The notes beneath the pieces are model-generated. The model was not told the origin of the DNA, ran no database searches, and saw only the letters and a program-made list of their open reading frames with translations. A stretch of 42,696 bases of DNA from Candidatus Woesearchaeota archaeon (lineage in GTDB: Archaea; Nanobdellota; Nanobdellia; Pacearchaeales; GW2011-AR1), in assembly GCA_964624735.1 (NCBI GenBank), contig CAZUXN010000003.1:1-42696 (forward strand), read 5' to 3'. Below are positions 6,290 to 35,252 of the stretch, in pieces (within the stretch, counting starts at the first letter, position 1; each line of letters opens with the position of its first letter). The translations under genes and the position numbers were made by a program.

Positions 6290-7117
6290 ATGTCTAAGAT
6301 AAAGTTTGGTCCGACGGGGATTGGGTCGGTTGGGGAGGCGGTTGCGAATTTGGAGATGTATGCTAAGTTAGGGTTTCGGGTGGCGGAGGTTTTGTTTACT
6401 TATGGGGTTTATATTAAAGAGAGGGAGGATGCTTTGAGGATTGGGCGGGTCGCGAAGAAGTTGGGGATTTATCTTTCTGTTCATGCGCCGTATTGGATTA
6501 ATTTGAATTCGAAGGACGAGAAGAAAGTTGAGATGTCGAAGAAGAGGATTTTGAAATGTTGCGAAGTCGCGTCGTGGCTTGGGGCGAAGCGAGTTGTTTT
6601 TCATCCTGGATACTATACTTCGATTTCTTCGAAGTTGAAGTCGCCTGTCGCTGGTCGCCTGTCGCTGGTCGCTGGAGAAAGTTATCAGAAAATTAAAGAG
6701 GGTATAGTTGAGATGATGGAGGTTATTAAGAAAGAGAAGTGGGATGTTGAGTTGTGTCCGGAGGTTATGGGGAAGGTGAATGTTTTTGGATCGATTGATG
6801 AGGTTGGTCGGTTGGTTCGCGAGACTGGGTGTTCTGCTTGTATTGATGTTGCTCATGTTTTGGCGAGGTATGGTTCTTATAAATTTTCTGAGATTGAGAA
6901 GGTGTTTAAGATGGAGAATTGGCATGTGCATTTTTCTGGGATTGAGTTTGGCGAGAAGGGTGAAAAGAAGCATTTGGTGACGCCTTTGTCTGAGTGGAAG
7001 AAGGTGTTGGGGTTTTTGAAGAAGTTGGATAAAGATGTTGTTTTGATTTGTGAAAGCCCCGACGCTGTTTCTGATAGCGTTGTTGGGATGAGAGTTTGGG
7101 ATGAGATGAATGCTTGA
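6290..7117 (+). CDS. nfo: endonuclease IV-like AP endonuclease (xylose-isomerase-like TIM barrel)
   Basis: HAPYWINLNS, RVVFHPGYY, CPEVMGK, CIDVAHV and WHVHFSGIEFGEKGEKKHLV follow the Endo IV metal-ligand block order. Carries an in-frame repeat insert. Confidence 0.7.
   Translation: MSKIKFGPTGIGSVGEAVANLEMYAKLGFRVAEVLFTYGVYIKEREDALRIGRVAKKLGIYLSVHAPYWINLNSKDEKKVEMSKKRILKCCEVASWLGAKRVVFHPGYYTSISSKLKSPVAGRLSLVAGESYQKIKEGIVEMMEVIKKEKWDVELCPEVMGKVNVFGSIDEVGRLVRETGCSACIDVAHVLARYGSYKFSEIEKVFKMENWHVHFSGIEFGEKGEKKHLVTPLSEWKKVLGFLKKLDKDVVLICESPDAVSDSVVGMRVWDEMNA
6617..6674 (+). repeat. hairpin ACTTCGA-N5-TCGAAGT (6617-6635) followed by a 5x 7-nt array GTCGCCT/GTCGCTG (6640-6674), in-frame in the nfo-like gene
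   Basis: Read directly from the sequence. It encodes ..TSISSKLKSPVAGRLSLVAGES.. directly after the conserved FHPGYY block. Confidence 0.9.
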
Positions 7118-14892: not shown

Positions 14893-16686
14893 ATGAGATT
14901 GGCGATTGTTCATAAGGAGAAATGTAAACCGGCAGGATGTGGGCGTGAGTGCAAGAAGTATTGTCCGGTTGAGAAAAAGGAGTTGGATAGTTGCGTGCGT
15001 GTGCGCACGAGTGGGTCGCCGGTCGCCAGTCGCCGGTCGCAGGAAGGGGGGAAAGAAGAAGAGAGTTGGGATGGGGCGAGGATTGATGAGAAGAATTGTG
15101 TTGGGTGTGCGATTTGTGTGAAGCGGTGTCCGTTTGGGGCGATTGATATTGTGAATTTGCCATCGGTGAGCGAAGGTGATTTGGTTTATCGTTATGGCGA
15201 GAATGGGTTTGCTTTGTATGGGTTGCCTATTCCTAAATCTGGGAAGGTTTTGGGATTGTTGGGTCGGAATGGGATTGGGAAGTCGACTGCTATTGAGATT
15301 TTGGCTGGGAAGATTGATGTTGATGTTTCGAAGTTTAAGAGGGGTGAATTGCAGAAATTTTTTTCAAAAATTTTAGCCAGTCGCCAGTCGCTAGTCGCCA
15401 GTCGGGTTAGTTATAAGCCGCAGAATTTGTCGGGGTTGTCGAAGGATGTCGGAGTTATGGAGTTACTGAAACAGAGAGGGAGCGAGGTGGAGATTAAGAT
15501 GTTGGCGAAGAGGTTGAATGTTGAGAATGTTCTTTCTAATAAGATGAATAAGTTGTCGGGTGGGGAGTTGCAGAGGGTTGCGATTTTGGCGGCTTCGCTT
15601 GGTAATGCTGATATTTATTTTTTCGATGAGCCGTTGGCGTTTTTGGATATTAGTGAGAGGCTTCGTGTTAGTGATTTTATTAAGGAGATTGGAAAAGATA
15701 GGACGGTGATTGTTGTTGAGCATGATTTGTTGGTTCTGGATTATTTGACGGATTATTTGAATGTGTTTTATGGGGGACAGGGGGCGTTTGGGATGGTGTC
15801 GGGGATTAAGAGTTCTAAGGAGGGTGTTAATGCTTATTTGAGGGGGTTTTTGAAAGAAGAGAATTTGAGAATTAGGGACAAGGCGTTGAGTTTTAATTTT
15901 ACGAAAAATGTTGCGGTGTTGGGAAAGAAGATTGCGGAGTGGCCTGATTTTAGTTTGAGTTTTGATAGTGGTTTTGAGTTGAGTGTTAGTGGCGGAGAGA
16001 TTAGAGAGAATCATGTGATTGGGATTTTGGGGAAGAATGGGACGGGGAAAACGTCATTCATTCGAGCTCTTGTGGGAGAACTTGAAGTTCGCAAGTCGCA
16101 AGTCGCAAGTCGCAAGTCGCGATTTGATTTGGGGTTGGATGTTAGTTATAAGTCACAGTATTTGTTTAGTGAGAGCGAGGAGTTTGTTCGGGATATTATT
16201 TTTAAAGAGAAGATAAATAAGAAATTGTCGTCGGTGTTTAATCTTGGGGTTTTGGTTGGAAAGAAATTGAAGGAGTTGTCGGGTGGTGAGTTGCAGAGAT
16301 TTAGTGTTGCGAGGTGCTTGGCGAAAGATGCAGATGTTTATTTTTTCGATGAGCCGTCGGCTTATCTGGATGTTGAGGAAAGGATTGTTGTTGCAAAGGT
16401 GATTAAGGATATTATGATAGAGAAGGAAAAGACTGCGTTTGTTGTTGACCATGATTTGCTTCTTGTTTCTTATTTGGCTGATTCGATTATTAATTTTTCG
16501 GGCGAGTCCGGAGTTTATGGAGAGGCGAGCGGGATTAGGAATTTTGAGGATGGAGTTGGCGAGTTGTTGAAGAGTTTGGATGTTACGTTGAGGAAAGATA
16601 GGGAGAGTGGGCGTCCTCGGATTAACAAGAGATGGTCGGTGCTTGATAGGGAGCAGAAGGCGAAAGGGAAGTGGGCGGTGTTTTAA
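14893..16686 (+). CDS. abce1: ABCE1 / RNase L inhibitor-type ribosome-recycling ATPase
   Basis: N-terminal Fe-S Cys clusters CKPAGCGRECKKYCP and CVGCAICVKRCP. Two NBDs with Walker A GRNGIGKST and GKNGTGKTS, and signature LSGGELQR twice. Contains three in-frame repeat inserts. Confidence 0.95.
   Translation: MRLAIVHKEKCKPAGCGRECKKYCPVEKKELDSCVRVRTSGSPVASRRSQEGGKEEESWDGARIDEKNCVGCAICVKRCPFGAIDIVNLPSVSEGDLVYRYGENGFALYGLPIPKSGKVLGLLGRNGIGKSTAIEILAGKIDVDVSKFKRGELQKFFSKILASRQSLVASRVSYKPQNLSGLSKDVGVMELLKQRGSEVEIKMLAKRLNVENVLSNKMNKLSGGELQRVAILAASLGNADIYFFDEPLAFLDISERLRVSDFIKEIGKDRTVIVVEHDLLVLDYLTDYLNVFYGGQGAFGMVSGIKSSKEGVNAYLRGFLKEENLRIRDKALSFNFTKNVAVLGKKIAEWPDFSLSFDSGFELSVSGGEIRENHVIGILGKNGTGKTSFIRALVGELEVRKSQVASRKSRFDLGLDVSYKSQYLFSESEEFVRDIIFKEKINKKLSSVFNLGVLVGKKLKELSGGELQRFSVARCLAKDADVYFFDEPSAYLDVEERIVVAKVIKDIMIEKEKTAFVVDHDLLLVSYLADSIINFSGESGVYGEASGIRNFEDGVGELLKSLDVTLRKDRESGRPRINKRWSVLDREQKAKGKWAVF
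14994..15042 (+). repeat. hairpin CGTGCG-TGTG-CGCACG (14994-15009) followed by a 4x 7-nt array GTCGCCG/GTCGCCA/GTCGCCG/GTCGCAG (15015-15042)
   Basis: Read directly. It encodes ..CVRVRTSGSPVASRRSQ.. between the two Fe-S Cys clusters of ABCE1. Confidence 0.9.
15376..15405 (+). repeat. ~4x 7-nt array GCCAGTC/GCCAGTC/GCTAGTC/GCCAGTC in ABCE1 NBD1
   Basis: Encodes ASRQSLVASR immediately before VSYKPQ. An AT-only 8-bp hairpin (15355-15373) lies just upstream but is probably native sequence. Confidence 0.9.
16078..16120 (+). repeat. palindrome GAACTT-G-AAGTTC (16078-16090) running into a 4x AAGTCGC array (16093-16120) in ABCE1 NBD2
   Basis: Encodes GELEVRKSQVASRKSR, a few codons before VSYKSQ. This is the loop equivalent to the NBD1 array site. 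Confidence 0.9.
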
Positions 16687-16994: not shown

Positions 16995-18647
16995 ATGAGG
17001 GAGATTATTGTTAATTTGATTTCGAAGGAAGTCGGGGAGGATGTTTCTAATTTAGTTGAGGTTCCGCCGAAAGAGGAGATGGGGGATTTTGCGTTTCCGT
17101 GTTTTGAGTTGGCGAAGAAGATGAGTAAGTCGCCTGTTGTTATCGCTGAGGATTTTGTTGGGAAGTTTCGGAAGAAGTTGCCCAAGGGTGTTGAGCGGGT
17201 TGATGCAAAAGGGGCTTATGTGAATTTTTTTGTTGATAATAAGATTTTGGCGGAGAGGGTATTTGCCGAGAAGAAGAGGGCTGTGAAGAAGAGAGGGAAG
17301 ATTGTGATTGATATGTCGTCGCCGAATATTGCGAAGCCGTTTGGGATTGGGCATTTGAGGTCGACGATTATCGGGAATTCGATTGGGAAGATTTGCGAGG
17401 CGAATGGGTTTGAAGTTACGAAAATTAATTATCTTGGAGATTGGGGGACGCAGTTTGGGAAGGTTATTTTTGGGTTTAAGAAATGGGGGAGCGAGGTGAA
17501 GTTGAAGAAGAATTCTATCGAGCATTTGTATGAGTTGTATGTTCGGGCTAGTGAGGAGGAGTTTGAGGATGAGACTCGTGAGGAATTTAGGAAGTTGGAG
17601 AGTGGTGACTCTGATAATGTTAAGTTATGGAAGAAGTTTAGGAAGTTGTCGTTGGAAGAGTTTGATGAGATTTATGATTTGCTTGGGGTTAAGTTTGATG
17701 TTGTTAGTGGAGAGAGTTTTTATAATGGAAAGATGGATGGTGTTGTCGAAGAATTAAGGAAGAGGAAATTATTGAAGAAGGATGATGGGGCGGAGATTGT
17801 TGATTTGGAGAGAGATGGGCTTGGGGTTGTGTTAATTCAGAAATCTGATGGGACTTCGCTTTATGTGACGAGGGATTTGGCTGCTGCGATTGATAGGAAA
17901 AAGAAATATAGATTTAATAGGATGATTTATGAGGTTGGGAATGAGCAGGTTTTGCATTTTAAGCAGTTGTTTCGGATTCTTGATAAGATGGGGTATAAAT
18001 GGGCGAAGGATTGTGTTCATGTTGCACATGGTTTGTATTTGGGTGGGGATGGGAAGAAGTTTGCGACGAGGAAGGGGAAGAGTGTTTTTATGAGGGATGT
18101 TTTGAGAGAAGTTATTGAGAAGGCGAGGCTTCGCTTGTCGGGAGTCGGAAGTCGGAAGTCGGAAGTCGGAAAGCTGGAGTTGGATTTGAGGGCGAGGAAG
18201 ATTGCGTTGGCGGCGATTTTTTATGGGGATTTGAAGAATTCACGGGAGAGTAATATGGTTTTTGATGTTGATAGGTTTTTGAGTTTTGAGGGGGACACGG
18301 GGCCATATTTATTGTATTCGTATGCGAGGGCTGCTTCGCTTTTGAGAAAGCGAAGGGGTCGTGGGTCGTGGGTCGTGGGTCGTGGGTTTAATGTTAGTGA
18401 GGTTCGGCTGTTGAAGAAGATTGATTCTTTTAGAGATGTTGTCGTGAGGGCTTATGAGAATTTGGCGCCGAATTTTGTTGCGAATTATTGTTTTGAGTTG
18501 GCGACGTTGTTTAATGAGTTCTATCATTCGTGTCCTGTGATTGGTTCAAATGAAGAAGGATTTAGGTTGAAGTTGGTTAAGAAGTTTAAGGAAGTTTTGG
18601 GAGAGGGGTTGGGTTTGTTGGGGATTGAGACTTTGGAGAGTATGTGA
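16995..18647 (+). CDS. argS: arginine--tRNA ligase
   Basis: SSPNIAKPFGIGHLRSTIIGN (HIGH-equivalent region), GDWGTQFG, SDGTSLYVTRDLAA, and a C-terminal DALR-type anticodon-binding domain. The start is at Met19 of the ORF, 23 nt after a TATA-like ATTAATAA. Carries two repeat inserts. Confidence 0.92.
   Translation: MREIIVNLISKEVGEDVSNLVEVPPKEEMGDFAFPCFELAKKMSKSPVVIAEDFVGKFRKKLPKGVERVDAKGAYVNFFVDNKILAERVFAEKKRAVKKRGKIVIDMSSPNIAKPFGIGHLRSTIIGNSIGKICEANGFEVTKINYLGDWGTQFGKVIFGFKKWGSEVKLKKNSIEHLYELYVRASEEEFEDETREEFRKLESGDSDNVKLWKKFRKLSLEEFDEIYDLLGVKFDVVSGESFYNGKMDGVVEELRKRKLLKKDDGAEIVDLERDGLGVVLIQKSDGTSLYVTRDLAAAIDRKKKYRFNRMIYEVGNEQVLHFKQLFRILDKMGYKWAKDCVHVAHGLYLGGDGKKFATRKGKSVFMRDVLREVIEKARLRLSGVGSRKSEVGKLELDLRARKIALAAIFYGDLKNSRESNMVFDVDRFLSFEGDTGPYLLYSYARAASLLRKRRGRGSWVVGRGFNVSEVRLLKKIDSFRDVVVRAYENLAPNFVANYCFELATLFNEFYHSCPVIGSNEEGFRLKLVKKFKEVLGEGLGLLGIETLESM
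18137..18171 (+). repeat. 5x 7-nt array GTCGGGA + 4x GTCGGAA in argS
   Basis: Encodes SGVGSRKSEVGK. 18143-18171 is identical over 29 nt to 40185-40213 in the pilus platform gene. Confidence 0.92.
18334..18385 (+). repeat. hairpin CTTCGCT-N8-AGCGAAG (18334-18355) followed by 4x GTCGTGG (18358-18385) in argS
   Basis: Encodes ..LLRKRRGRGSWVVGRG.. after the conserved YSYARAASLLRK segment. Confidence 0.9.
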
Positions 18648-19537: not shown

Positions 19538-22441
19538 TTATATTTTGTTGAATTTTATAATGAAGGATTTATTTTTTATTTTTCCCTCTTCTAAGTGACT
19601 AAACTTTTTATTTGATTCATCAAATGAGATTGTTTTTGCCCCAACCCTTTTTTGGATGAAGTTGAGTTGTGATTTTATTTTGTCATTGAATTCTGATATT
19701 ATTTCAAGTTCGATTGAATCGGATCTTGAGAGATTTGCCTTTTTTCTTGTTGCCTGAATTTTTCTTGATATTTCTCTTGCGAAGCCTTCGGATTCGAGTT
19801 CGGGGGTGATGTTTGTATCGAGTTTGATTCCCCAATCTTTTTCGTGAGCTTCTTTATATTCTATTTTTTTTATGTTTAGTTCTTCTTTTATAATTTGGTG
19901 TAATTCTTTGCTGAAGTTTTTGTAGTATTTTATTGTTGCTTTGGCGAGTGGCCATTTGATTCCGATTTGGACTTTGTCTCTTTCTCTTAGTCCTTGTGAA
20001 ACTGCCCATTTTATTTGTTCCATTTCTTGTTCGAGTTTTTTGTTGATTAATTTTTGGTTTGCTTTTGGGTAATCTTGAAGGTGGATTGATTTTTTCTTGC
20101 CGTTCATGTCTTGGTATATTTTTTCTGTTACGAATGGGATTATTGGTGCGAGGATTTTTGTTAGTTTTTCAAGGACATATCTTAATGTTTTTCTTGCGGA
20201 TTCGTCATTGGTGTTAAATCTGTCTCGCGAGTTTCTGATGTACCAAGTTGATAGGTTGTCTATGTATTTTTTTATGGATTCGCAGGCTTTTATCGTGTTG
20301 TATTCTTCGAGGGTTTTTTGGATTGTTGCATTTAGAATTTCGGTTTTTGAGATTATCCATTTGTCCATTATATGTTGGCTTGTGGCTTGTGGCTTGTCGC
20401 TTGTCGCTTGGTAGTCTTGGTAGAAGTTTGAGATGTTGTATAGCAGGACTGTGACTTGTTTGTATGTTTCTTGGAGACCTTTTTCTGAGAAGTTGAAATT
20501 TTCGGCGTTCATAACTGGTGATTGGAGCAGGTAAAATCTCAAGGTGTCTGCTCCATATTTGTCTATGACCTTGAGTGGGTCTGGATAGTTTTTTAGTGAT
20601 TTTGACATTTTTTGTCCGTTTTCTGCGAGGATTGTTCCGGTTGTTAGGACGTTTTCAAATGGGATTTTGTCGAAGAGGATTGCTGATAATGTCATCATAT
20701 AATAAAACCACGCTCTGGTTTGTGCGATGTATTCTGATACGAATTGTGCTGGGAAGTGTTTGTTGAAATATTCTTTGTTTTCAAATGGATAATGGAATTG
20801 GGCGAAGGTCATTGCCCCTGATTCGAACCAGCAGTCTAAGACTTCCGGGATTCTTTCATAGGTTTCATTTTCTATTTTTAGTTTTATGTTGTCTAATGTG
20901 TCTTTGTGTAGGTCGACAATCGGCAAAGCCGATTGTGTTTTTGGTTTTTGGTTTTTGGTTTTTGGTGAGCTGTCGATAAGCTCTTCTAATTCTTTTATTG
21001 AACCTACGACTTTTATTTTTCCTGATTTTGATTTCCAGATTGGGATTGCTGTCGCCCAGTATCTGTTTCGCGTGATGTTCCAGTCTGGTGCAGTTGAGAT
21101 GTTGTGTTGCATTCGACCTTCTTTGAGATGTTTTGGGAACCAATTGATTTTGAGGTTTAATTTTAGGAGTTTGTTTTTGATTTTTTGGATGTCGACGAAC
21201 CATGCTGGTAGGGCTCTGTATATTAGTTTTGTGTCACATCTATAGCAGAAAGGGTATTCGTGTTCCATTTTTTTTATTGCGATTGCTTTGCTGGATTTTT
21301 TTAGGTCGATTGCGATTTGTTCATTTGCGTCGTGGACGAATTGTCCTTTATAATCGCTTACTTCTTTTGTAAATTTTCCGTTTTCGTCGACGGGTTGGAC
21401 TATAGGGATGTTGTATTTTTTGCAGATGGCGTTGTCGTCTTCTCCGAATGCCGGTGCTGTGTGAACTATTCCGGTTCCGTCTTCGGCTGTTACGAAGTCG
21501 TCTAGTAAAAATTGGAAAGAGTTTGGGTTGTTTTTGAAGTAGGGGAATATGGGTTCGTATTTTTTGCCTTCGAGTTTTTTGCCTTTTATTTCTTCTGTGA
21601 TTGTGTATTCATCTTTGGATTTATAGAATTTTGGAATTAGTTTTTTTGCGAGGAGATATGTGTTTCCGTCGTCTTTGTCTTTGATGTATGCGTATGTTAG
21701 TTTTGGGTTGACTGTTAGTGCAAGGTTACTCGGGAGAGTCCATGGGGTTGTTGTCCATGCCAAAGCAAAAACTTCGTTTTTGCTTTCGGTGTTCGGTGTT
21801 CGGTGTGTCGGTGTGTCGGAGAGTTTGAATTTCACGACGATGGTCGTGTCTTTTATAATTTTGTAAGAATTGTCCATTGCGATTTCGGATTTTGATAATG
21901 GGGTCGAACATCGTGGACAGTAGAGCAGGATTTTTTCGCCTTCGTATAGGTATCCTTTTTCGTAGAGTTGTTTGAATGCCCACCAGACTGATTCGATGTA
22001 GTTTGTGTCCATTGTTTTGTAGCCGTCTTTGAAATCTACCCATCTTCCGATTTTGTCGATGTATTTTTCCCAGTCGTTGGCGTAGGTCAAAACTTTTGAG
22101 CGGCAGAAATCGTTGAATTTTTTGATGCCTATCTTCTCAATTTCGTCTTTGGAGTTTATGCCGAGTTCTTTTTCTGCGATGTTTTCGATTGGTAGTCCGT
22201 GGCAGTCCCAGCCCCAGTTTCGTTTGACGTATCTGCCTTGCATTGTGAAGAATCTTGGGAAGACGTCTTTTAGCGTCGAGGCTAATAAATGTCCGTAGTG
22301 TGGTAGTCCGGTTGCGAATGGTGGGCCGTCGTAGAAGATGTAGGGTTTTCCTTTTTCTGTTTGCTTTAATGATTTTTCAAATGTCTTGTCTTTCTTCCAG
22401 AATTTTAGGATTTCGTTTTCTGTTTCGGAGATGGATGTCAT
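19538..22441 (-). CDS. ileS: isoleucine--tRNA ligase
   Basis: HIGH motif PHYGHLL, editing-domain signature WTTTPWTLPSN, and KMSKS (GQKMSKSLKNY). Carries three repeat inserts. Confidence 0.95.
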   Translation of the reverse strand: MTSISETENEILKFWKKDKTFEKSLKQTEKGKPYIFYDGPPFATGLPHYGHLLASTLKDVFPRFFTMQGRYVKRNWGWDCHGLPIENIAEKELGINSKDEIEKIGIKKFNDFCRSKVLTYANDWEKYIDKIGRWVDFKDGYKTMDTNYIESVWWAFKQLYEKGYLYEGEKILLYCPRCSTPLSKSEIAMDNSYKIIKDTTIVVKFKLSDTPTHRTPNTESKNEVFALAWTTTPWTLPSNLALTVNPKLTYAYIKDKDDGNTYLLAKKLIPKFYKSKDEYTITEEIKGKKLEGKKYEPIFPYFKNNPNSFQFLLDDFVTAEDGTGIVHTAPAFGEDDNAICKKYNIPIVQPVDENGKFTKEVSDYKGQFVHDANEQIAIDLKKSSKAIAIKKMEHEYPFCYRCDTKLIYRALPAWFVDIQKIKNKLLKLNLKINWFPKHLKEGRMQHNISTAPDWNITRNRYWATAIPIWKSKSGKIKVVGSIKELEELIDSSPKTKNQKPKTQSALPIVDLHKDTLDNIKLKIENETYERIPEVLDCWFESGAMTFAQFHYPFENKEYFNKHFPAQFVSEYIAQTRAWFYYMMTLSAILFDKIPFENVLTTGTILAENGQKMSKSLKNYPDPLKVIDKYGADTLRFYLLQSPVMNAENFNFSEKGLQETYKQVTVLLYNISNFYQDYQATSDKPQATSQHIMDKWIISKTEILNATIQKTLEEYNTIKACESIKKYIDNLSTWYIRNSRDRFNTNDESARKTLRYVLEKLTKILAPIIPFVTEKIYQDMNGKKKSIHLQDYPKANQKLINKKLEQEMEQIKWAVSQGLRERDKVQIGIKWPLAKATIKYYKNFSKELHQIIKEELNIKKIEYKEAHEKDWGIKLDTNITPELESEGFAREISRKIQATRKKANLSRSDSIELEIISEFNDKIKSQLNFIQKRVGAKTISFDESNKKFSHLEEGKIKNKSFIIKFNKI
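20374..20409 (+). repeat. 5x 7-nt array (GTTGGCT)TGTGGCT/TGTGGCT/TGTCGCT/TGTCGCT in ileS (gene on the minus strand)
   Basis: Read on the + strand. It encodes QATSDKPQATSQ on the minus strand. Confidence 0.9.
20916..20964 (+). repeat. hairpin ACAATCGGC-AAA-GCCGATTGT (20916-20936) abutting 4x GTTTTTG (20937-20964) in ileS
   Basis: Perfect 9-bp stem. Together the hairpin and array encode SSPKTKNQKPKTQSALPIV just N-terminal of the DLHKD block. Confidence 0.9.
21762..21819 (+). repeat. hairpin AAAGCAAAAAC-TTC-GTTTTTGCTTT (21762-21786) running into a 7/8-nt array TGTTCGG x2 and TGTGTCGG x2 (to 21819) in ileS
   Basis: Perfect 11-bp stem. The low-coordinate arm encodes VFAL of VFALAWTTTPWT (native), and the other arm encodes ESKN. 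The array encodes TPTHRTPNT. Confidence 0.9.
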
Positions 22442-23057: not shown

Positions 23058-23905
23058 TGTTTATTATAGTTGAATATCTTTAAATATTCTTCTTCTAAGA
23101 AGTGAAGCTCGGTTGGGACGATTAGGCAGAATGGTATCCTTATTTGCTGTTCGTTGTCCGCTGTTCGCTTGTCGCTTGCGAGATTTTCTGGGGTATCGTA
23201 GAATATTTTTTGGTTGCTGGTTCCGGCGTTTGATATTGCTATGATTTTTTTTGGGAGGTTTGCCTTTGATTCGCTTAGTTGGTTGATTGCTTTTTTGATT
23301 TCGAGTCCGATGTCGGTTAGGATTAGGGTGTGGGCTTGGATTGATTGGTTTTGTTTGATAACGTCGGCGAAGGATTTTGGTTTGTTAGTGTGTTCTTTCC
23401 AATTTGGCATTGAGGTTGTTTTTCCGAATTTGTAGAGGGATAGGCCGGTTTCTGCGACGGTGGTTAGGATTGATGCGTTGTGGAAGATTTTGTATGGGAT
23501 GTTTTGTTTTTTGGCGGCGAGGATTAGTTGGATGTGTGTTGTTGCAGAGAGGGCGTCGCCGTAAACTAAGAGGGATACCACTTTCGTGGAAGCTTCTTTT
23601 ATTATTTGTTCGTTTTCTACGGCTTCTCTTGAAAGTGGTCGCAGGTCGCAGGTCACAGGTCGCAGGTCGCGGTTTATTGTTTTTTCTAGGTCTTCGATTT
23701 TGTAGGGGAAGTTGACGGTGTAATTTTCGAGATAGATTTTGTCGCAGGTTTTGAGGACATTGATGGCTTCGTCCGTTAGAGAGTTTGCGTTCATGCCAAG
23801 GCCTATCAAAAAAAGGAAACCTTTTTTTGATACTGGTCGCTGGGCCGCTCGGTACACCCCTTTTATTGGGGCGTCGCAGGTCGCTGGTTGCTTGTTTTGT
23901 TTCAT
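23054..23905 (-). CDS. dph5: diphthine synthase
   Basis: FLFLIGLGM.., LLVYGDALSATTH and NASILTTVAETGLSLYKFGKTTS are Dph5 methylase blocks. It has a ~29-aa N-terminal extension and two internal inserts made of 7-nt arrays. Confidence 0.85.
   Translation of the reverse strand: MKQNKQPATCDAPIKGVYRAAQRPVSKKGFLFLIGLGMNANSLTDEAINVLKTCDKIYLENYTVNFPYKIEDLEKTINRDLRPVTCDLRPLSREAVENEQIIKEASTKVVSLLVYGDALSATTHIQLILAAKKQNIPYKIFHNASILTTVAETGLSLYKFGKTTSMPNWKEHTNKPKSFADVIKQNQSIQAHTLILTDIGLEIKKAINQLSESKANLPKKIIAISNAGTSNQKIFYDTPENLASDKRTADNEQQIRIPFCLIVPTELHFLEEEYLKIFNYNKQ
23146..23180 (+). repeat. 5x 7-nt array GCTGTTC/GTTGTCC/GCTGTTC/GCTTGTC/GCTTGCG in dph5
   Basis: Encodes ASDKRTADNEQQ near the C-terminus (gene on the minus strand). 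Confidence 0.85.
23638..23672 (+). repeat. 5x 7-nt array GTCGCAG/GTCGCAG/GTCACAG/GTCGCAG/GTCGCGG in dph5
   Basis: Encodes RDLRPVTCDLRPL. It has the same + strand unit type as the ABCE1 arrays although the gene is on the opposite strand. Confidence 0.92.
23873..23893 (+). repeat. 3x 7-nt array GTCGCAG/GTCGCTG/GTTGCTT in the dph5 N-terminal extension
   Basis: Encodes KQPATCD. Preceded by the imperfect hairpin ACACCCC-N7-GGGGCGT (23854-23874). Confidence 0.8.
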
Positions 23906-23929: not shown

Positions 23930-24172
23930 TTAAGCTTTGTGCCAGATTAAGGTTGTGATGAATGTGAATGTTAGGGTTAGGGCGATTGTCGACTTTGTAG
24001 CTGTTAGCTGGTAGCTGTTAGCTGGTAGAATTAGTATTGTTATTATTGTGATTGATAGGAGGCAGAGGATGACTGGGAAGTATTTGGTGTAGATTTGTTT
24101 TTCGTCTTTTGTTGTTTTTGCGAGGATGATGCCGATGGGGATTGCTAAGATTAGAGTTAAGTATTCTATCAT
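23930..24172 (-). CDS. small 3-TM membrane ORF, about one third built from tandem repeats
   Basis: 80 aa. The C-terminal half (PANSYQLTATKSTIALTLTFTF) is encoded by the repeats at 23959-24028. Whether it is a real gene is uncertain. Confidence 0.4.
   Translation of the reverse strand: MIEYLTLILAIPIGIILAKTTKDEKQIYTKYFPVILCLLSITIITILILPANSYQLTATKSTIALTLTFTFITTLIWHKA
23959..24028 (+). repeat. hexamers TGAATG x2 and TTAGGG x2 (23959-23982) plus 7-nt array GTAGCTG/TTAGCTG x2 with a partial fifth unit GTAG (23997-24028)
   Basis: Read directly from the sequence. Confidence 0.9.
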
Positions 24173-24355: not shown

Positions 24356-25216
24356 ATGAAACTTGTTGATGTGCATGCGCATTTGGAACATTCGAGGTTT
24401 GAGAAGGATTTGGATGAGGTTGTTGATAGGTTTGTCGAGGCTGGCGGGGAGTTGGTTGTTACTAGTGGGGTTAATCCTGAGACGAATCGGAAGGCCTTGG
24501 AGTTGGCTGGAAAATATGATTGTGTTCGGGTTTCGTTTGGGCTTTATCCGATTGATGCTTTAGCTAAGGAGGTTGAGGCGTCGAGTGATTTTTTGAGGGA
24601 GATAAAAAATTTTGATGTTGATGAGGAGTTGGGATGGATTGAGGAGCACAAGGATGATTGTGTTGCGATTGGTGAGGTTGGGTTGGATTATTCGGACGAA
24701 GTTTCGTCCGAAGGTGTCAGGTGTCAGGATTCAGGTGTCAGAATGAGGGAAAAACAGAAGGAGGTTTTTCGGAAGGTGTTGAGGTTGGCGAAGAGGATAG
24801 ATAAGTGTGTGGTTGTTCATTCGAGGAAGGCGGAGGGGGATGCGGTTGAGATTTTGGAGGAGGAGTCCCGGTTAGATAGCGAGCATCAAACGGGACAAGG
24901 GAGATTGAAGGTTGTGATGCATTGTTTTAATGGGCGGAAGAGTTTGATTAAGAGGGGTGTTGAGAATGGGTGGTTTTTTTCGGTACCTCCTGTGATTGTT
25001 AGACTTGAGCATTTTAAGATGTTGGTTTCTCTTGTTCCGCTTGGGCAACTTTTGACTGAGACTGATGCGCCGTATTTGTCTCCGGTTGTTGGGGAGAGGA
25101 ATGAGCCGGCTAATGTTTTTGTGACGTTGAAGGAGATTGCTCGGATTAAAGGTTTGAGTGTTGAGGAGGTTTCTTCTGTGGTGTTTGAGAATTTTGAGAG
25201 GGTGTTTGGGGGTTGA
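24356..25216 (+). CDS. tatD: TatD-family metal-dependent hydrolase/DNase
   Basis: DVHAHL, GEVGLDY, VVHSRKA, HCFNG and ETDAPYL are the TatD metal-ligand blocks. Confidence 0.88.
   Translation: MKLVDVHAHLEHSRFEKDLDEVVDRFVEAGGELVVTSGVNPETNRKALELAGKYDCVRVSFGLYPIDALAKEVEASSDFLREIKNFDVDEELGWIEEHKDDCVAIGEVGLDYSDEVSSEGVRCQDSGVRMREKQKEVFRKVLRLAKRIDKCVVVHSRKAEGDAVEILEEESRLDSEHQTGQGRLKVVMHCFNGRKSLIKRGVENGWFFSVPPVIVRLEHFKMLVSLVPLGQLLTETDAPYLSPVVGERNEPANVFVTLKEIARIKGLSVEEVSSVVFENFERVFGG
24691..24741 (+). repeat. hairpin TTCGGACGAA-GT-TTCGTCCGAA (24691-24712) followed by 4x 7-nt array GTGTCAG/GTGTCAG/GATTCAG/GTGTCAG (24714-24741) in tatD
   Basis: Perfect 10-bp arms starting right after the GLDY codons. 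Encodes SDEVSSEGVRCQDSGVR. Confidence 0.92.
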
Positions 25217-28362: not shown

Positions 28363-29328
28363 TTATTTTTTGTTGATTGGTTTTTTAATGTTTGGCCATT
28401 TGTCGGTGAGGGTTGGTTCGTTGGATTGGTAGATTATTCCGAGTGGGATTTTGCCGGATTTGGAGTTGTAGTCGAATTCATCGGCGAGTTTTTCTGCGGT
28501 TTGTTTGTCTTTGTTATCTTTTATTTTGTACATTAGTTTGTCTTTGTTGTTGGCGTCGAGGTTGAAGATGAGGCAGTCTTGGATGACTTCGACGAATGAG
28601 AATCCGTTGTGGGCGATTGCTTTTGAGAATGTTTCGACCATGTGCGGGATGTCGCGGGCGTTTGTTCTTGCGATGAATGTTGCGTTTGATGCTAATGCTA
28701 GTTTGATTGGGTTGAATGGTTTGTCTTTGACGCCGAGGGGATTTGCTTTTGAGATGTATCCTTGTTGGGAGGTTGGGGTTGGTTGGCCGGTTGTTAGAGA
28801 GAAGGATTGGTTGTCGTGGAGGATTAGGGTCATGTCGGGGTTGTATTTGAAGGCGTGGATGAAGTGGGCGATTCCTTCGGAGTAGACTCCGCCGTCGCCG
28901 GCGAATGTTATGACTTTGAGGTTCGGGTTTGCGAGCGTTATTCCAATTGCTGTCGGTATTGCGCGGCCGTGGAGGCAGTAGATTCCGGAGAGGTTTAGGT
29001 AGTCGAAGATTTTTGCATGACATCCTATATCTGTCGTCATGCAAAAATCTAGTTCGCTTCGCTGTGAGTTCGCTTCGCTGTGAGTGTCGGCTTTGCCGAC
29101 GAGTTTGCTTTGACTTTGTCGAAGCTGTGAGTTCGACTTGTTAGGATTTGATATTAGGTTTGTTATGGTTTGTTTGACTGCTTCTAATATCATGTGATTT
29201 GGGCAGCCGGGGCACCAGGTCAACTCCGAGGGAGTTGACAGACTGGCTTTGTCTGTCAGACCTCTTCGCTGTGAGACCTCTTCGCTGTGAGACCTCTTCG
29301 TTGTCAGATTGGCTGTTTTTGGGTTCAT
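28363..29328 (-). CDS. korB: 2-oxoacid:ferredoxin oxidoreductase beta subunit
   Basis: WCPGCPNH, DIGCHAK and the TPP motif GDGGVYSEG..HDNQSFSLTTGQ. It has an N-terminal extension and an internal insert, both built from hairpins and 16-nt repeats. Confidence 0.9.
   Translation of the reverse strand: MNPKTANLTTKRSHSEEVSQRRGLTDKASLSTPSELTWCPGCPNHMILEAVKQTITNLISNPNKSNSQLRQSQSKLVGKADTHSEANSQRSELDFCMTTDIGCHAKIFDYLNLSGIYCLHGRAIPTAIGITLANPNLKVITFAGDGGVYSEGIAHFIHAFKYNPDMTLILHDNQSFSLTTGQPTPTSQQGYISKANPLGVKDKPFNPIKLALASNATFIARTNARDIPHMVETFSKAIAHNGFSFVEVIQDCLIFNLDANNKDKLMYKIKDNKDKQTAEKLADEFDYNSKSGKIPLGIIYQSNEPTLTDKWPNIKKPINKK
29007..29137 (+). repeat. 15-bp perfect fold-back (29007-29021 / 29036-29050), 2x 16-mer AGTTCGCTTCGCTGTG (29051-29082), hairpins GTCGGC-TTT-GCCGAC (29086-29100) and GTCGAA-N8-TTCGAC (29118-29137)
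   Basis: Read directly, inside korB. The low-coordinate arm encodes CHAKI of the conserved DIGCHAKIF block. Confidence 0.92.
29219..29318 (+). repeat. hairpins GTCAACTCC-GAG-GGAGTTGAC (29219-29239) and GACAGAC-N7-GTCTGTC (29237-29257), then ~4x 16-mer GTSAGACCTCTTCGCT (29255-29318)
   Basis: Read directly. It forms the first ~36 codons of korB, upstream of WCPGC. Confidence 0.92.
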
Positions 29329-29795: not shown

Positions 29796-31339
29796 ATTAT
29801 TTCTTTGATTAGTTCGTTTAGTTCGTCGGAGTGGAAGGGGCGGCCGTTGTATTTTAGGAGTCGGTTTTTGATTTTGATTCCGGTTTTTTCTCTGATTAAT
29901 CTGCCGAGTTGTCCGGTGACGTTACATTCTACTAGGATTACTTTGTTTGCGGCTTCGAGTTCTTCTTTAATTTTTGGGGAGAGCGGTTTGCAGTAGAGGA
30001 CTTGGAGGAATTTGGCGTCGAGGTTTTTGATTGCGTCTTTGATTGCGCCGGATGTTGAGCCCCAGCCGATGATTAAGTTTTTTGAGTTTTTGTTGCCGTG
30101 GATTTTTATCATTTCGAAATTTTTCTGGATGTATTTTTTTATGTTTTTGTATTTTTCGACTCGTTTGTTTGCGTTGTCTTCGGTGATTGTGTATGATTCT
30201 GTTGTGTTGCCGAGTTTGTCTGTTTCGTAGGATGATGCTTTGATGATTGATTGTCCCGGGAGTTTTCTTGTAATTTGGATTTTTGTGGTTGGTTTAGGTT
30301 TTGCCGTTGAGGAAAACTCGGATTCGGCGAGGTGTTTGTCCGAGAGGATTATTGAGAGTGTTTGGAATTTTTCGGCGAGGAATAATGCTTCGGAAGTTTT
30401 TTCGATTGTTTCGGTTGGGTTGCTTGGAGCGACGACGATTCGTGGGAATTCGCCGTGTCCTGCTCGGAGTGCGATGTCGAGATCGGCTTGTGCGGTATAA
30501 GTTGGGACTCCCGTCGCTGGTCCGGGTCTTGAGGCTAGGTAGATTGTTAGTGGGATTCCAGATTGTCCTTGTAGGGATAATGTTTCTCCCATTAAATCGA
30601 AGCCGCCGCCTGATGTTCCGATTAGTGTTTTTGCTCCGGCGAATGATGCTCCGATTGCCATGCTACCGACGGCGATTTCATTTTCGGCTTGGAAGACTGT
30701 CATGTTAGCCGTTAGCTGTTGGCCGTTAGCTGTTGGCTTTTGGAGTTTGGCGAGTTCGTGCATTGCGTTTGTTGCTGGGGTCATTGGGTAGGCGATGTAT
30801 AAGTTTATTCCGGAGTTTATTGTTCCTATTGCTATTGCTTGATTTCCTGATAGGATTGTTGTTTTGTTATTTAATTTTTTTAATTGTTGTTTTGTTTCTT
30901 GTGAGTCGAATCCTTTTTTTGCTGAGATAATTGCTTTGTTTGATTCTTTGAATTGAGATTTGATTTCGTTGTTTAATTCTTCGAGAGGGATGCCGAGGAT
31001 TTTTATTAGTGAGCCGGCGAGTGCGATGTTTATATTTCGTCCTTCGTTTTTGAATTTGTCGGCGGTGATTATTATGCCGTCTTTTTTTAGAGCCTGTTTG
31101 TGGATTTTGATTGATTGTTTGTCGAGTGCGATAAGGATGTCTGTTTTTGATTCGTGGGATTCGATTGGTTTGTCGGATATTGTTAGGGCGTTGAAGTTGT
31201 GGCCGCCGCGGATTAAGGATTGATAGTCTCGGTAGTTGAAAGTGAAGTAGCCGTGTTTGGATAGGATGTTTGAGATTATTTGAGAGACTTTATTGATTCC
31301 CTGTCCTGCCTCGCCACCGATTAGGATTGTCAGTTTCAT
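29792..31339 (-). CDS. korA: 2-oxoacid:ferredoxin oxidoreductase alpha subunit (gamma-alpha fusion type)
   Basis: N-terminal gamma-like GGEAGQGINKVS..RGGHN, then the alpha domain GNQAIAIG..AYPMTPAT. Confidence 0.9.
   Translation of the reverse strand: MKLTILIGGEAGQGINKVSQIISNILSKHGYFTFNYRDYQSLIRGGHNFNALTISDKPIESHESKTDILIALDKQSIKIHKQALKKDGIIITADKFKNEGRNINIALAGSLIKILGIPLEELNNEIKSQFKESNKAIISAKKGFDSQETKQQLKKLNNKTTILSGNQAIAIGTINSGINLYIAYPMTPATNAMHELAKLQKPTANGQQLTANMTVFQAENEIAVGSMAIGASFAGAKTLIGTSGGGFDLMGETLSLQGQSGIPLTIYLASRPGPATGVPTYTAQADLDIALRAGHGEFPRIVVAPSNPTETIEKTSEALFLAEKFQTLSIILSDKHLAESEFSSTAKPKPTTKIQITRKLPGQSIIKASSYETDKLGNTTESYTITEDNANKRVEKYKNIKKYIQKNFEMIKIHGNKNSKNLIIGWGSTSGAIKDAIKNLDAKFLQVLYCKPLSPKIKEELEAANKVILVECNVTGQLGRLIREKTGIKIKNRLLKYNGRPFHSDELNELIKEII
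30704..30738 (+). repeat. 5x 7-nt array GTTAGCC/GTTAGCT/GTTGGCC/GTTAGCT/GTTGGCT in korA
   Basis: Encodes KPTANGQQLTAN (gene on the minus strand). Confidence 0.9.
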
Positions 31340-34912: not shown

Positions 34913-34933
34913 GGTTTTGTTAGTTTGTTTTTT

Positions 34934-35189: not shown

Positions 35190-35214
35190 TTGAAAATCGG
35201 AGATTTTCAAGTGG

Positions 35215-35249: not shown

Positions 35250-35252
35250 AAT

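What the first reader, a model, noticed from the sequence alone, without database searches (positions are those of the whole stretch)
20374..21819. IleRS carries three arrays, two with perfect 9- and 11-bp hairpins; one hairpin arm is the strand preceding WTTTPWT
The three arrays are: 20374-20409, (T)GTGGCT/(T)GTCGCT x5, peptide QATSDKPQATSQ; 20916-20964, ACAATCGGC-AAA-GCCGATTGT plus GTTTTTG x4, peptide SSPKTKNQKPKTQSALPIV before DLHKD; and 21762-21819, AAAGCAAAAAC-TTC-GTTTTTGCTTT plus TGTTCGG/TGTGTCGG units, peptide TPTHRTPNTESKN before VFALAWTTTPWT. The gene is on the minus strand, yet the hairpin-then-array order and the G/T-rich reading are the same on the + strand as in plus-strand genes. 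On the protein, the inserts therefore lie N-terminal of the duplicated native segment.
Basis: partly seen in the sequence, partly recalled or inferred. Interest (0 to 1): 0.65.

Follow-up and report, generated by a model that had tools for sequence, protein, structure and literature searches.

The report
Strand-locked hairpin plus heptamer repeats
The isoleucyl-tRNA synthetase gene of this tiny archaeon (Pacearchaeota group) carries three short 7-base tandem repeats, two of them directly next to perfect DNA hairpins; the same hairpin-then-repeat unit, always pointing the same way on the G-rich DNA strand, sits in many genes of this lineage and looks like a tolerated scar of DNA replication rather than a mobile element.

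Summary
IleRS (19538-22441, minus strand) holds three period-7 arrays. Two directly follow perfect 9- and 11-bp hairpins.

It is one instance of a lineage-wide module. On the locally G-rich strand the order is always: arm matching native codons, 3-5 nt loop, inverted copy of that arm, then 4-5 heptamers.
- A perfect hairpin abuts the 5' end of 17 of 51 arrays and the 3' end of none (random control 0.5%).
- The order is the same for genes on either strand.
- Period 7 is the only enriched period.
- The modules occur in one Pacearchaeota clade, not in equally skewed relatives.
- Array copy number is identical between near-identical strains, yet unit and hairpin sequence differ between species at the same protein loops.
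- Hairpins stay perfect through changes on both arms.
- Some modules overwrite native codons with almost no length change.

Best explanation (confidence about 0.5): strand-specific replication errors, namely fold-back template switching plus hairpin-stalled slippage. Selection then keeps only in-frame, stop-free, hydrophilic products in surface loops.

The excess of heptamer repeats in prokaryotes and hairpin-making template switches are each known. The fused, polar, in-gene module seems undescribed.

The parts
19538..22441 (-). IleRS coding sequence (967 aa), host of the three arrays
   Evidence: ORF and translation. Homologues at 66-85% identity are named isoleucine--tRNA ligase of Pacearchaeota/Nanoarchaeota. 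PDB IleRS hit at E 1e-217.
20374..20410 (+). Array 1: TGGCTTG x3 + TCGCTTG x2. No hairpin. Encodes QATSDKPQATSQ. Replaces a variable loop with no length change relative to close orthologues.
   Evidence: DNA fold z +1.4. The loop lies between predicted helices 653-677 and 691-712. L008 has a decayed copy and L003 has a different heptamer (CTCAGGA) at the same place.
20916..20936 (+). Hairpin 2: ACAATCGGC-aaa-GCCGATTGT, perfect 9 bp
   Evidence: -9.3 kcal/mol, z -4.6. The 5' arm on the + strand is the complement of the P-I-V codons before DLHKD.
20937..20966 (+). Array 2: GTTTTTG x4.3 (gene sense CCAAAAA), directly next to hairpin 2. Net +13 aa relative to L002.
   Evidence: The unit matches the native CCA AAA AAA (P-K-K) of relatives. 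Gap in 8wnd_A. pLDDT <50 coil at residues 492-507.
21762..21786 (+). Hairpin 3: AAAGCAAAAAC-ttc-GTTTTTGCTTT, perfect 11 bp. The 5' arm is the complement of the native V-F-A-L codons before AWTTTPWT.
   Evidence: -10.8 kcal/mol. Orthologues L003, L011 and L005 carry the same hairpin with changes on both arms.
21785..21819 (+). Array 3: TTCGGTG x3 then TGTGTCGG x2. Net +12 aa relative to L002.
   Evidence: pLDDT <50 loop at 211-221 between strands 193-207 and 224-230.
14994..15040 (+). RLI/ABCE1 gene (+): 6-bp hairpin CGTGCG-tgtg-CGCACG, then GGTCGCC x3.9
15355..15404 (+). RLI gene (+): hairpin AAATTTTT-ttc-AAAAATTT, then AGTCGCC x4. The 5' arm is the native Q-K-F-F codons. Net +7 aa.
16078..16120 (+). 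RLI gene (+): 5-bp hairpin GAACT-tga-AGTTC, then TCGCAAG x4.6. Net +7 aa.
18137..18171 (+). ArgRS gene (+): GTCGGAA x5. Overwrites a native loop (+1 aa relative to L002, +2 relative to PDB 1bs2).
18334..18387 (+). ArgRS gene (+): hairpin CTTCGCTTT-tgag-AAAGCGAAG, then GGGTCGT x4.6. The 5' arm is the native S-L-L codons. The 3' arm and array replace native residues (+1 aa).
23804..23858 (+). TP_methylase (diphthine-synthase-like) gene (-): 13-bp hairpin TATCAAAAAAAGG-aaa-CCTTTTTTTGATA, then a degenerate array. L021 has a clean GGGATTC x4 at what appears to be the corresponding site.
23637..23670 (+). TP_methylase gene (-): GGTCGCA x4.9, +11 aa. A further array lies at 23146-23173 (+8 aa).
24691..24741 (+). 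TatD gene (+): hairpin TTCGGACGA-agtt-TCGTCCGAA, then GGTGTCA x4.3 (+9 aa)
29219..29308 (+). POR-beta gene (-): hairpin GTCAACTCC-gag-GGAGTTGAC, then 13 nt later a 16-mer array x3.5
40180..40214 (+). T2SSF-like gene (+): TCGGAAG x5, the same unit as in ArgRS
6640..6675 (+). AP-endonuclease-2-fold gene (+): GTCGCCT/GTCGCTG array
30703..30743 (+). POR alpha/gamma gene (-): GTTAGCC/GTTGGCC array
23997..24028 (+). Intergenic array GTAGCTG/TTAGCTG, 32 nt. A second intergenic array lies at 12845-12877.

Best explanation
The arrays and hairpins are scars of a strand-specific replication error process that is very active in one Pacearchaeota clade. Selection then filters the products.

Step 1 (inferred). 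While the G-rich strand is being made, a stalled 3' end folds back on itself after a 3-5 nt loop. It copies 8-13 nt of what it has just synthesised. This creates a perfect hairpin whose 5' arm is native and whose 3' arm is new or overwrites native codons. The G-rich strand is taken to be the leading strand, because G>C, T>A and 58% of coding sequence lies on it. Repeats of this switch keep the two arms identical, which explains the paired changes between species.

Step 2 (inferred). The same G-rich strand is the lagging-strand template, which spends time single-stranded. There the hairpin folds and blocks the polymerase, which arrives from the hairpin's 3' side. The stalled 3' end slips by about 7 nt. 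This builds and homogenises a heptamer array exactly at the 3' foot of the hairpin.

Step 3. Selection keeps only events that are in frame, free of stop codons, hydrophilic in the reading actually used, and located in loops. The observed bias is shown; selection as its cause is inferred.

What is shown: the module anatomy, its polarity, its restriction to one lineage, its recurrence at the same loops, the paired arm changes, its stability between strains, and the overwriting of native codons.

What is inferred: the enzymology, and which strand is the leading one.
For: Polarity and adjacency.
- A perfect stem of >=8 bp ends within -2 to +1 nt of the array's 5' end on the G-rich strand in 17 of 51 arrays. 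The figure is 0 of 51 at the 3' end and 0.5% at random positions.
- In the non-redundant set with mismatches allowed, the counts are 14-18 of 39 upstream against 1-3 of 39 downstream.
- Conversely, 8 of the 11 perfect hairpins in the window are followed at once by an array on the + strand.

Independence from gene direction.
- Upstream hairpins occur in 3 of 14 arrays in G-strand genes and 10 of 23 in C-strand genes, always in the same DNA orientation.
- The encoded peptides differ completely by strand.

The 5' arm is native.
- It corresponds to QKFF, GELE and CVRV in RLI, SLL in ArgRS, and VFAL and PIV in IleRS.
- No array-free orthologue has a hairpin at the site before WTTTPWT (stems 3-6).

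Renewal of the hairpin.
- WIN, L003 and L011 read AAC/GTT, AGT/ACT and GGT/ACC at three stem positions. L018 and L004 differ by C-G against T-A. All stems are perfect.
- Template switching is known to create and maintain hairpins, including paired changes in a single event (PMC8794818).

Slippage.
- Period 7 is the only enriched period.
- An excess of heptanucleotide repeats is known in prokaryotes. It has been ascribed to the length of DNA held by the polymerase (Mrazek et al. 2007, as cited in PMC4692102 and PMC4679880).
- A stem-loop ahead of a polymerase stimulates slippage at the motif just 3' of it on the template (PMC5737552).
- FEN1-null yeast shows simple-repeat indels, direct-repeat duplications and palindrome-forming fold-backs together (PMC5677150).

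Selection filter.
- 37 of 39 arrays lie in long open frames.
- Arrays in C-strand genes read at a hydropathy of -1.33, against +0.68 if read on the other strand. Eight of 22 would carry stop codons there.
- The IleRS sites are loops.

The only 4 SNPs between WIN and L023 cluster 17-87 nt 3' of array 2. Three of the four are C/T on the G-rich strand.
Against: - About 55-60% of arrays have no junction hairpin even when mismatches are allowed. Either hairpins decay fully or arrays also arise without them.
- Slippage alone does not explain why arrays replace native sequence with almost no length change (ArgRS +1 aa, IleRS array 1 +0).
- It also does not explain why array length is so uniform: 21-38 nt, mostly 30-35, including two intergenic arrays.
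- Units are not random. About 55% contain TCG, with a GTCG+NNN core, and GTCGGAA and GTCGCTT each recur at four or more unrelated sites. Selection for hydrophilic peptides and GC-rich slippage intermediates may explain this, but that was not shown.
- L002 is nested in the array-rich clade and has equal skew, yet it has no arrays and no excess of weak period-7 tracts. An unidentified lineage factor is therefore needed.
- No contig with a skew reversal was available, so the link to replication direction is inferred from skew and gene-strand bias only.
- Heptamer arrays in phage contigs have no hairpins.
Confidence: 0.5

Rival explanations
1. A single-event aberrant patch synthesis. A gap or break on the G-rich strand is repaired by a low-processivity polymerase, such as a primase-polymerase or a polymerase working like theta-mediated end joining. 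It first snaps back (making the hairpin arm). It then repeatedly copies a roughly 7-nt template segment by microhomology re-priming (making the array). Finally it re-anneals at a variable point downstream. A 40-50 nt patch is thus rewritten in one step.
For: - The new arm and the array form one contiguous block 3' of the native arm.
- Net length change varies from 0 to 39 nt while the rewritten block stays about 40-50 nt. Native codons are overwritten in ArgRS, in IleRS array 1 and at IleRS site 4 of L003 and L011.
- Array length is uniform even in intergenic DNA.
- Copy number is stable between strains, which argues against ongoing stepwise slippage.
- Hairpin offsets differ at one site (0, 4 and 11 nt from the W codon), as expected for independent events.
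Against: - No candidate enzyme was identified in the window.
- Arrays at orthologous sites differ by one or two unit substitutions (GTCGTGG, GTCGCGG, GTCGGAA in ArgRS). That fits concerted evolution of an inherited array.
- Iterated copying of exactly 7 nt has no shown precedent here. The analogy to theta-mediated end joining comes from memory and was not tested.
Confidence: 0.22
2. The modules are functional, selected single-strand DNA signals that are polar with respect to replication. They could be priming, restart or segregation signals on the lagging-strand template. The hairpin would be kept perfect by selection and the GTCG-core repeats would be a protein recognition array.
For: - Strict strand polarity.
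- Hairpins stay perfect across species through paired changes on both arms.
- A restricted unit vocabulary with a GTCG core.
- High density, about one per 2.5 kb.
- A hairpin with a degenerate array lies at the 3' end of the SRP RNA gene.
Against: - A sister lineage (L002) lives without them.
- Units and stems are not conserved in sequence. More than half of the arrays lack hairpins.
- The choice of unit follows gene orientation and peptide hydropathy, as expected from a protein-level filter.
- Placing signals inside essential enzymes is costly.
- Paired arm changes are equally explained by template switching.
Confidence: 0.1
3. The segments persist because the inserted low-complexity peptides are useful, for example as new disordered linkers like the tandem repeats of Borg elements. 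Selection on the protein drives their spread.
For: - The peptides are hydrophilic in the frame used, and the sites are loops.
- The same loops are hit in many lineages.
- There is a precedent in Borg elements (PMC9879509).
Against: - The peptide sequence depends only on which DNA strand codes (T/P/N/K/Q against G/S/R/V/E).
- The DNA-level polarity and the hairpin have no meaning for the protein.
- Intergenic arrays look the same.
- Sister lineages lack them.
- Protein selection explains the filtering, not the origin.
Confidence: 0.06
4. A tiny mobile palindromic element inserts in frame into genes, like Rickettsia palindromic elements or MITEs.
For: In-frame insertions into essential genes at permissive loops, with a palindromic part.
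Against: - There is no shared element sequence. Each hairpin is a copy of its own neighbouring codons, and units differ.
- There are no terminal repeats or target duplications.
- Some modules give no net insertion.
- No transposase was found in the window.
Confidence: 0.03
5. An assembly or amplification artefact.
For: Fold-back chimeras are known artefacts of multiple displacement amplification (from memory).
Against: - Identical modules appear in independent assemblies from different samples and pipelines: JGI, ENA, Logan and NCBI.
- All keep the reading frame.
- Orthologous positions recur across species.
Confidence: 0.01

Closest known systems
Long simple sequence repeats with a heptanucleotide unit in prokaryotes (Mrazek, Guo and Shah 2007; cyanobacterial STRR; Xanthomonas GGGAATC; Beggiatoa TAACTGA)
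   Same: Tandem 7-nt units. Period 7 is the one over-represented period. A typical length is about 4 units, as in Xanthomonas. Units vary between species at conserved positions. Polymerase slippage is the proposed cause.
   Different: - The known examples are mostly intergenic and vary in length (2-26 units).
- Here 37 of 39 arrays lie inside open reading frames of housekeeping genes.
- Length is uniform and copy number is fixed between strains.
- Orientation is locked to the G-rich strand.
- 35-45% abut a perfect hairpin.
Template-switch (quasipalindrome) mutations: fold-back of a nascent strand that creates or perfects inverted repeats
   Same: One arm is an inverted copy of adjacent sequence. 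Stems are perfect. Changes spanning several nucleotides on both arms separate relatives. The hairpin is absent from outgroup orthologues. A strand bias is known in E. coli.
   Different: Known events are isolated and rare. Here perfect hairpins are about 7-fold enriched genome-wide. They recur at the same loops and are physically joined to a tandem array on one fixed side.
Mutational signature of FEN1 (rad27) deficiency in yeast
   Same: The same three event types occur together: simple-repeat indels, duplications between short direct repeats, and palindrome-forming fold-backs (PMC5677150).
   Different: In yeast the event types are scattered and not fused into one polar module. Whether this clade has an altered flap endonuclease could not be tested. 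RNase HII in the window is intact.
Structure-stimulated polymerase slippage (Penno et al. 2017, reverse transcriptases)
   Same: The geometry matches. A stem-loop ahead of the enzyme promotes insertions at the motif immediately 3' of it on the template.
   Different: That work was done in vitro on RNA templates, with additions of one or a few bases. Here the additions are 7-nt units, on DNA, over evolutionary time.
Rickettsia palindromic elements (selfish DNA inside protein-coding genes)
   Same: Palindrome-containing DNA is inserted in frame into essential genes at positions the fold tolerates. The description of these elements is from memory.
   Different: Those elements are a homologous family of 100-150 bp mobile elements. 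These modules are 40-55 nt, share no sequence, and copy their own flank.
Tandem repeats of Borg elements (PMC9879509)
   Same: Archaeal. Perfect, fast-evolving tandem repeats inside genes add disordered peptide segments.
   Different: Borg units within open reading frames are multiples of 3 and have no adjoining hairpin (stated from memory of PMC9879509; only its abstract was seen). Here the unit is 7, so only the total length keeps the frame, and each run of three units cycles through all three frames.

Membership tests
Heptanucleotide simple sequence repeat (LSSR) | Head-to-tail copies of one 7-nt unit, at least 3 copies | tested here: met
   TRF and a lag-7 scan found 12 strict arrays in the window, including the three in IleRS
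Heptanucleotide simple sequence repeat (LSSR) | Period 7 over-represented relative to neighbouring periods and to shuffled sequence | tested here: met
   12 arrays against 0 at periods 4, 5 and 8-15. At a low threshold, 64 against 21 after shuffling.
Heptanucleotide simple sequence repeat (LSSR) | Copy number varies between closely related strains | tested here: not met
   No indel in any array between contigs 99.7-100% identical: L023/WIN, L004/L019/L020/L021, L011/L032
Heptanucleotide simple sequence repeat (LSSR) | Mainly intergenic location | tested here: not met
   37 of 39 non-redundant arrays lie in open frames of at least 300 nt
Template-switch (quasipalindrome) mutation | The new sequence is the reverse complement of adjacent sequence | tested here: met
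   Perfect 8-13 bp arms. The 5' arm on the G strand matches native codons that are conserved in orthologues.
Template-switch (quasipalindrome) mutation | The hairpin is absent from outgroup orthologues, and clustered changes on both arms separate relatives | tested here: met
   Array-free orthologues have stems of only 3-6 bp. WIN, L003 and L011 differ at three paired positions, and L018 and L004 at one.
Template-switch (quasipalindrome) mutation | Arises during replication with a strand bias | not testable with these tools
   Only the correlation with GC skew and independence from gene strand were seen. No contig with a skew reversal was available.
Phase-variable contingency locus | Changes in repeat number switch the reading frame or promoter on and off | tested here: not met
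   The genes are essential housekeeping genes, all arrays are in frame, and copy number is invariant between strains
Mobile palindromic element (RPE or MITE type) | Copies share a conserved element sequence and ends | tested here: not met
   Stems and units differ at every site, and the stems copy local codons
Programmed -1 frameshift signal | A slippery X XXY YYZ heptamer followed 5-9 nt later by an RNA structure, with an alternative frame in use | tested here: not met
   The order relative to the mRNA inverts with gene strand. The conserved protein continues in the zero frame through every array.
Target site of a diversity-generating retroelement (variable repeat plus hairpin) | A template repeat elsewhere, a nearby reverse transcriptase, and adenine-specific differences | tested here: inconclusive
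   An Avd-like ORF lies at 41296-41709. No reverse transcriptase or template repeat was seen in the window, and the targets are loops of many housekeeping genes. The rest of the genome was not available.
CRISPR array | Repeats of 24-40 nt separated by unique spacers | tested here: not met
   Units are 7 nt with no spacers

The most novel reading that the evidence does not exclude
One Pacearchaeota clade has a dedicated DNA-writing activity tied to the replication fork. It could be an altered primase-polymerase, a flap-processing defect or a reverse-transcriptase-like enzyme. It rewrites 40-50 nt patches of the lagging-strand template into 'hairpin plus GTCG-core heptamers'. The resulting single-strand DNA structures are kept because they act as polar replication signals. 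This would also give a mechanistic handle on why heptanucleotide repeats dominate prokaryotic simple repeats.
Probability: 0.15. Interest if true: 0.85.

Novelty: new variant of a known kind. Interest (0 to 1): 0.68.

Why it matters
Three reasons.

1. It gives a concrete, testable geometry for an old puzzle. Heptanucleotide repeats were reported as the most common long simple repeat in prokaryotes in 2007 and remain unexplained. Here the repeat sits at the 3' foot of a hairpin on one replication strand.

2. It shows template switching and slippage acting as a coupled, high-rate process. That process rewrites loops of essential enzymes such as aminoacyl-tRNA synthetases and ABCE1. It adds or replaces 7-13 residues at the same loops again and again in sister species. 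This is a visible route to fast loop evolution in genome-reduced DPANN archaea.

3. Practical points:
- These segments will mislead alignments, phylogenies and insertion-based markers built from universal proteins of DPANN.
- An array-free lineage nested in the clade offers a natural comparison for finding the responsible replication or repair factor.

Tried and rejected
- **Mobile element.** Rejected because copies share no sequence and the stems copy local codons.
- **By-product of extreme GC skew.** Rejected. L002, L008, L034, L035 and L055 have skew of 0.3-0.4 but no period-7 excess.
- **Decayed arrays in L002.** No excess of weak period-7 tracts was found.
- **Hypervariable contingency loci.** Rejected, since there are no indels between strains.
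- **Frameshift signal or RNA-level element.** Rejected because the order follows the DNA strand rather than the transcript. Rfam finds only 3 tRNAs and the SRP RNA in the window.
- **Scan of viral contigs for (AGTCGGA)x3.** This gave 12 contigs, GC 0.41-0.67, rich in heptamer arrays but without hairpins. They were not obviously Pacearchaeota (GC 0.41-0.67, weak skew). They could not serve as a test on the other replichore.
- **More distant IleRS loci (P0083, P0112, P0047).** These were fetched in the hope of finding the gene on the G-rich strand. None qualified. L053 showed the same architecture with a 16-mer unit.
- **AlphaFold model.** Poor overall (pLDDT 64), so it was used only for local loop and secondary-structure context.
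- **Pfam scan of about 40 window ORFs.** No polymerase, primase, reverse transcriptase or transposase was found.
- **Literature searches.** No description of in-gene heptamer-plus-hairpin modules in DPANN was found.

Full report
**1. What is in the sequence**

The ORF at 19538-22441 on the minus strand encodes a 967-aa isoleucyl-tRNA synthetase. Its relatives, at 66-85% identity, come from Pacearchaeota/Nanoarchaeota (DPANN) metagenome genomes. Their usual length is about 940 aa.

- Array 1 lies at 20374-20410: TGGCTTG x3 then TCGCTTG x2.
- Array 2 is hairpin 20916-20936 (ACAATCGGC-aaa-GCCGATTGT) followed without a gap by GTTTTTG x4.3 up to 20966.
- Array 3 is hairpin 21762-21786 (AAAGCAAAAAC-ttc-GTTTTTGCTTT) followed by TTCGGTG/TGTGTCGG units up to 21819.

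In gene sense the arm GTTTTTGCTTT is the V-F-A-L codons directly before A-W-T-T-T-P-W-T. As single-stranded DNA the two hairpins fold at -9.3 and -10.8 kcal/mol. Array 1 has no hairpin.

An independent contig (L023) is 99.87% identical over 3120 nt with no gap. It therefore carries the same copy numbers.

**2. It is not chance**

- With at least 3 copies, the window has 12 arrays of period 7 and none at periods 4, 5 or 8-15.
- At a low TRF threshold, array-bearing genomes have 64 period-7 tracts against 21 after shuffling. Equally skewed array-free relatives have 23 against 20.
- Perfect hairpins (stem >=8) number 25 against 3.4 expected in array-bearing genomes. In the two other groups the counts are 10 against 6.6 and 26 against 17.

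**3. It is not about IleRS**

The whole window has GC skew of +0.13 to +0.61 with T>A. The sign is the same under genes of both strands.

I oriented every array to the locally G-rich strand, using the window and 39 related loci (about 0.5 Mb in total).
- A perfect hairpin ends within -2 to +1 nt of the array's 5' end in 17 of 51 arrays.
- No array has one at its 3' end.
- Random positions give 0.5%.
- In the non-redundant set with mismatches allowed, the counts are 14-18 of 39 against 1-3 of 39.
- Conversely, 8 of the 11 perfect hairpins in the window are followed at once on the + strand by an array. These include a 13-bp stem at 23804 and one followed by a 16-mer array at 29253.

The order is the same in genes coded on the G-rich strand (RLI, ArgRS, TatD) and on the C-rich strand (IleRS, TP_methylase, POR-beta). 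Relative to the protein, the module therefore inverts with gene direction.

The real unit is thus: native arm, 3-5 nt loop, inverted copy, then 4-5 heptamers, read 5' to 3' on the G-rich strand. Arrays are 21-38 nt long, mostly 30-35. Of 39 arrays, 37 lie in long open frames. The window holds about one array per 2.5 kb.

**4. Comparison with orthologues**

In array-free relatives such as L002, which is syntenic and has skew of -0.41, the two hairpin-bearing IleRS segments are simply absent (12 and 13 aa). So are segments in RLI (3, 7 and 7 aa), TP_methylase (11 and 8 aa) and TatD (9 and 10 aa). They are also gaps against solved IleRS 8wnd_A.

The sites are loops.
- Residues 211-221 lie between two predicted strands.
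- Residues 492-507 follow a helix.
- Residues 678-690 join two helices.

The model is poor overall, so only this local reading is used.

In the clearest cases the arm that is 5' on the G-rich strand corresponds to conserved native codons. These are QKFF, GELE and CVRV in RLI, SLL in ArgRS, and VFAL and PIV in IleRS. The 3' arm and the array are new.

Not all modules are insertions.
- IleRS array 1 causes no length change relative to its close orthologues.
- Both ArgRS modules change length by +1 aa relative to L002.
- The ArgRS modules also align without a real gap to yeast ArgRS 1bs2.
- At a fourth IleRS site in L003 and L011, both hairpin arms fall on native positions.

The process can therefore overwrite about 40-50 nt.

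**5. Evolutionary behaviour**

At the site before WTTTPWT, 13 of 32 aligned homologues carry a segment, and the sequences differ. At the DNA level the hairpins sit at three different offsets from the W codon:
- offset 0 in L001;
- offset 4 in WIN, L003, L011 and L005;
- offset 11 in L018 and L004.

This means at least three independent origins. L029 has an array without a hairpin. L053 has a 16-mer array with a 6-bp hairpin.

Within an offset group the stems stay perfect through changes on both arms.
- WIN, L003 and L011 read AAC/GTT, AGT/ACT and GGT/ACC.
- L018 and L004 differ by C-G against T-A.

No array-free orthologue has a hairpin there.

Units at orthologous sites differ by whole-array substitutions, for example GTCGTGG, GTCGCGG and GTCGGAA in ArgRS.

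Between strains 99.7-100% identical, no array differs in length. These are therefore not contingency loci.

On an IleRS neighbour-joining tree the array-rich loci form one clade. The array-free L002 is nested inside it.

**6. Unit vocabulary**

About 55% of units contain TCG, with a core of GTCG plus three variable bases. Their mean GC is 0.56 in a genome of 39% GC. GTCGGAA recurs at four unrelated sites, all in G-strand genes. GTCGCTT recurs at four, all in C-strand genes.

Read in the frame actually used, arrays in C-strand genes have a mean hydropathy of -1.33. Read on the other strand they would score +0.68, and 8 of 22 would contain stop codons. In G-strand genes the TCG and CGG codons supply Ser and Arg on an otherwise hydrophobic G/T-rich strand.

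I read this as a protein-level filter. It may not be the whole explanation.

**7. Mechanism**

The excess of heptanucleotide repeats in prokaryotes is known. It has been ascribed to the length of DNA held by the polymerase. Several further points come from published work.
- Template switching creates and maintains perfect hairpins, including paired changes in one event (PMC8794818).
- A stem-loop ahead of a polymerase stimulates insertions at the motif just 3' of it on the template (PMC5737552).
- FEN1-null yeast shows repeat indels, direct-repeat duplications and palindrome-forming fold-backs together (PMC5677150).

The G-rich, T-rich strand carries 58% of the coding sequence. By the usual rule it is the leading strand. 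It is therefore both the product of leading-strand synthesis and the template of lagging-strand synthesis.

A two-step model fits the polarity.
- Fold-back on the nascent G-rich strand puts the new arm 3' of the native arm.
- The hairpin on the single-stranded lagging-strand template then stalls the polymerase arriving from its 3' side, where slippage builds the array.

The only four SNPs between WIN and L023 cluster 17-87 nt 3' of array 2. Three of them are C/T on the G-rich strand. That suggests local single-strand exposure, but it is a single case.

The main rival is a single-event patch synthesis: snap-back, iterated copying of about 7 nt, then re-annealing downstream. It explains overwriting, uniform length and stability between strains better. 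It explains concerted unit evolution less well.

Other rivals rank lower. These are a functional polar signal, protein-driven selection, a mobile element and an artefact. The reasons are given in the rival list.

**8. Limits**

- No contig with a skew reversal was available, so the link to replication direction is inferred.
- The lineage factor is unknown.
- More than half of the arrays lack a hairpin.
- The GTCG core is not fully explained.

**9. Verdict**

The feature is a new, polar, composite variant of two known mutational products. It is written at high density into essential genes of one DPANN clade.

Noticed in passing
window 1-42696: GC skew is very strong (+0.13 to +0.61 in 2-kb windows) with T>A. 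The sign is the same under genes of both strands. It is lower (0.13-0.3) where genes are on the minus strand.
   Followed up: partly
window 20983-21053, compared with L023: The only 4 differences between the window and an independent 3.1-kb contig cluster in 71 nt, just 3' of array 2. Three of them are C (window) against T (L023) on the G-rich strand. This could be a local deamination or error-prone patch.
   Followed up: partly
window 29051-29085 and 29219-29308; L053:3400-3520 approx.: Period-16 arrays occur in the POR-beta gene, one of them 13 nt after a perfect 9-bp hairpin. A distant relative (P0083) has a 16-mer array plus a 6-bp hairpin at the IleRS site before WTTTPWT. The module is therefore not strictly period 7. 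8-mers also occur at 21807-21819 and in L011.
   Followed up: partly
L041-L052 (IMG/VR contigs): Exact (AGTCGGA)x3 occurs in 12 viral contigs of GC 0.41-0.67. In these contigs period-7 arrays (21-86 nt, up to 9 per 10 kb) are again the dominant tandem period, but without adjoining hairpins. One contig carries ATTGGTC arrays, which resemble (from memory) the cyanobacterial STRR heptamer TTGGTCA.
   Followed up: partly
window 41296-41709: An ORF of the 23S_rRNA_IVP / Avd-like four-helix family lies between two ORFs that each hold one T2SSF domain (39989-41245 and 41687-42523). Avd-like proteins often accompany diversity-generating retroelements. No reverse transcriptase is present in the window.
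   Followed up: no
window 34932-35250: The archaeal SRP RNA gene lies at 34932-35191 (84.8 bits, below Rfam's gathering score of 96.5). A perfect 11-bp hairpin (35188-35212) and a degenerate G-rich period-7 tract start at its 3' end.
   Followed up: partly
window 36870-36977: A perfect 51-bp tandem duplication (2.1 copies, 100% identical) lies between two pilin-like ORFs.
   Followed up: no
window 15014/15374/16089 and 23637/23998/24712: Successive array starts are spaced 360 and 715 nt apart in the RLI gene. They are spaced 361 and 714 nt apart across TP_methylase, an intergenic region and TatD. This is an unexplained coincidence.
   Followed up: no
window 23054-23905 (minus strand): The diphthine-synthase-like methylase is 50 aa longer than its L002 orthologue. 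Part of this appears to be an N-terminal extension (not resolved by the alignment) that contains the 13-bp hairpin module. The true start codon may lie elsewhere.
   Followed up: no
L002:14163-15790: ArgRS of the array-free relative is called as two overlapping ORFs (302 + 247 aa). This could be a frameshift or a sequencing error.
   Followed up: no
L020:10239-10591 compared with L021: Thirty substitutions cluster in 350 nt between otherwise identical contigs. This looks like a recombination patch.
   Followed up: no
L054:12606-12631: A distant, weakly skewed relative (GC 0.30) has a perfect 11-bp AT-only hairpin at the same IleRS loop (before TPELE) where L003 and L011 carry hairpin-array modules, but it has no array.
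   Followed up: no
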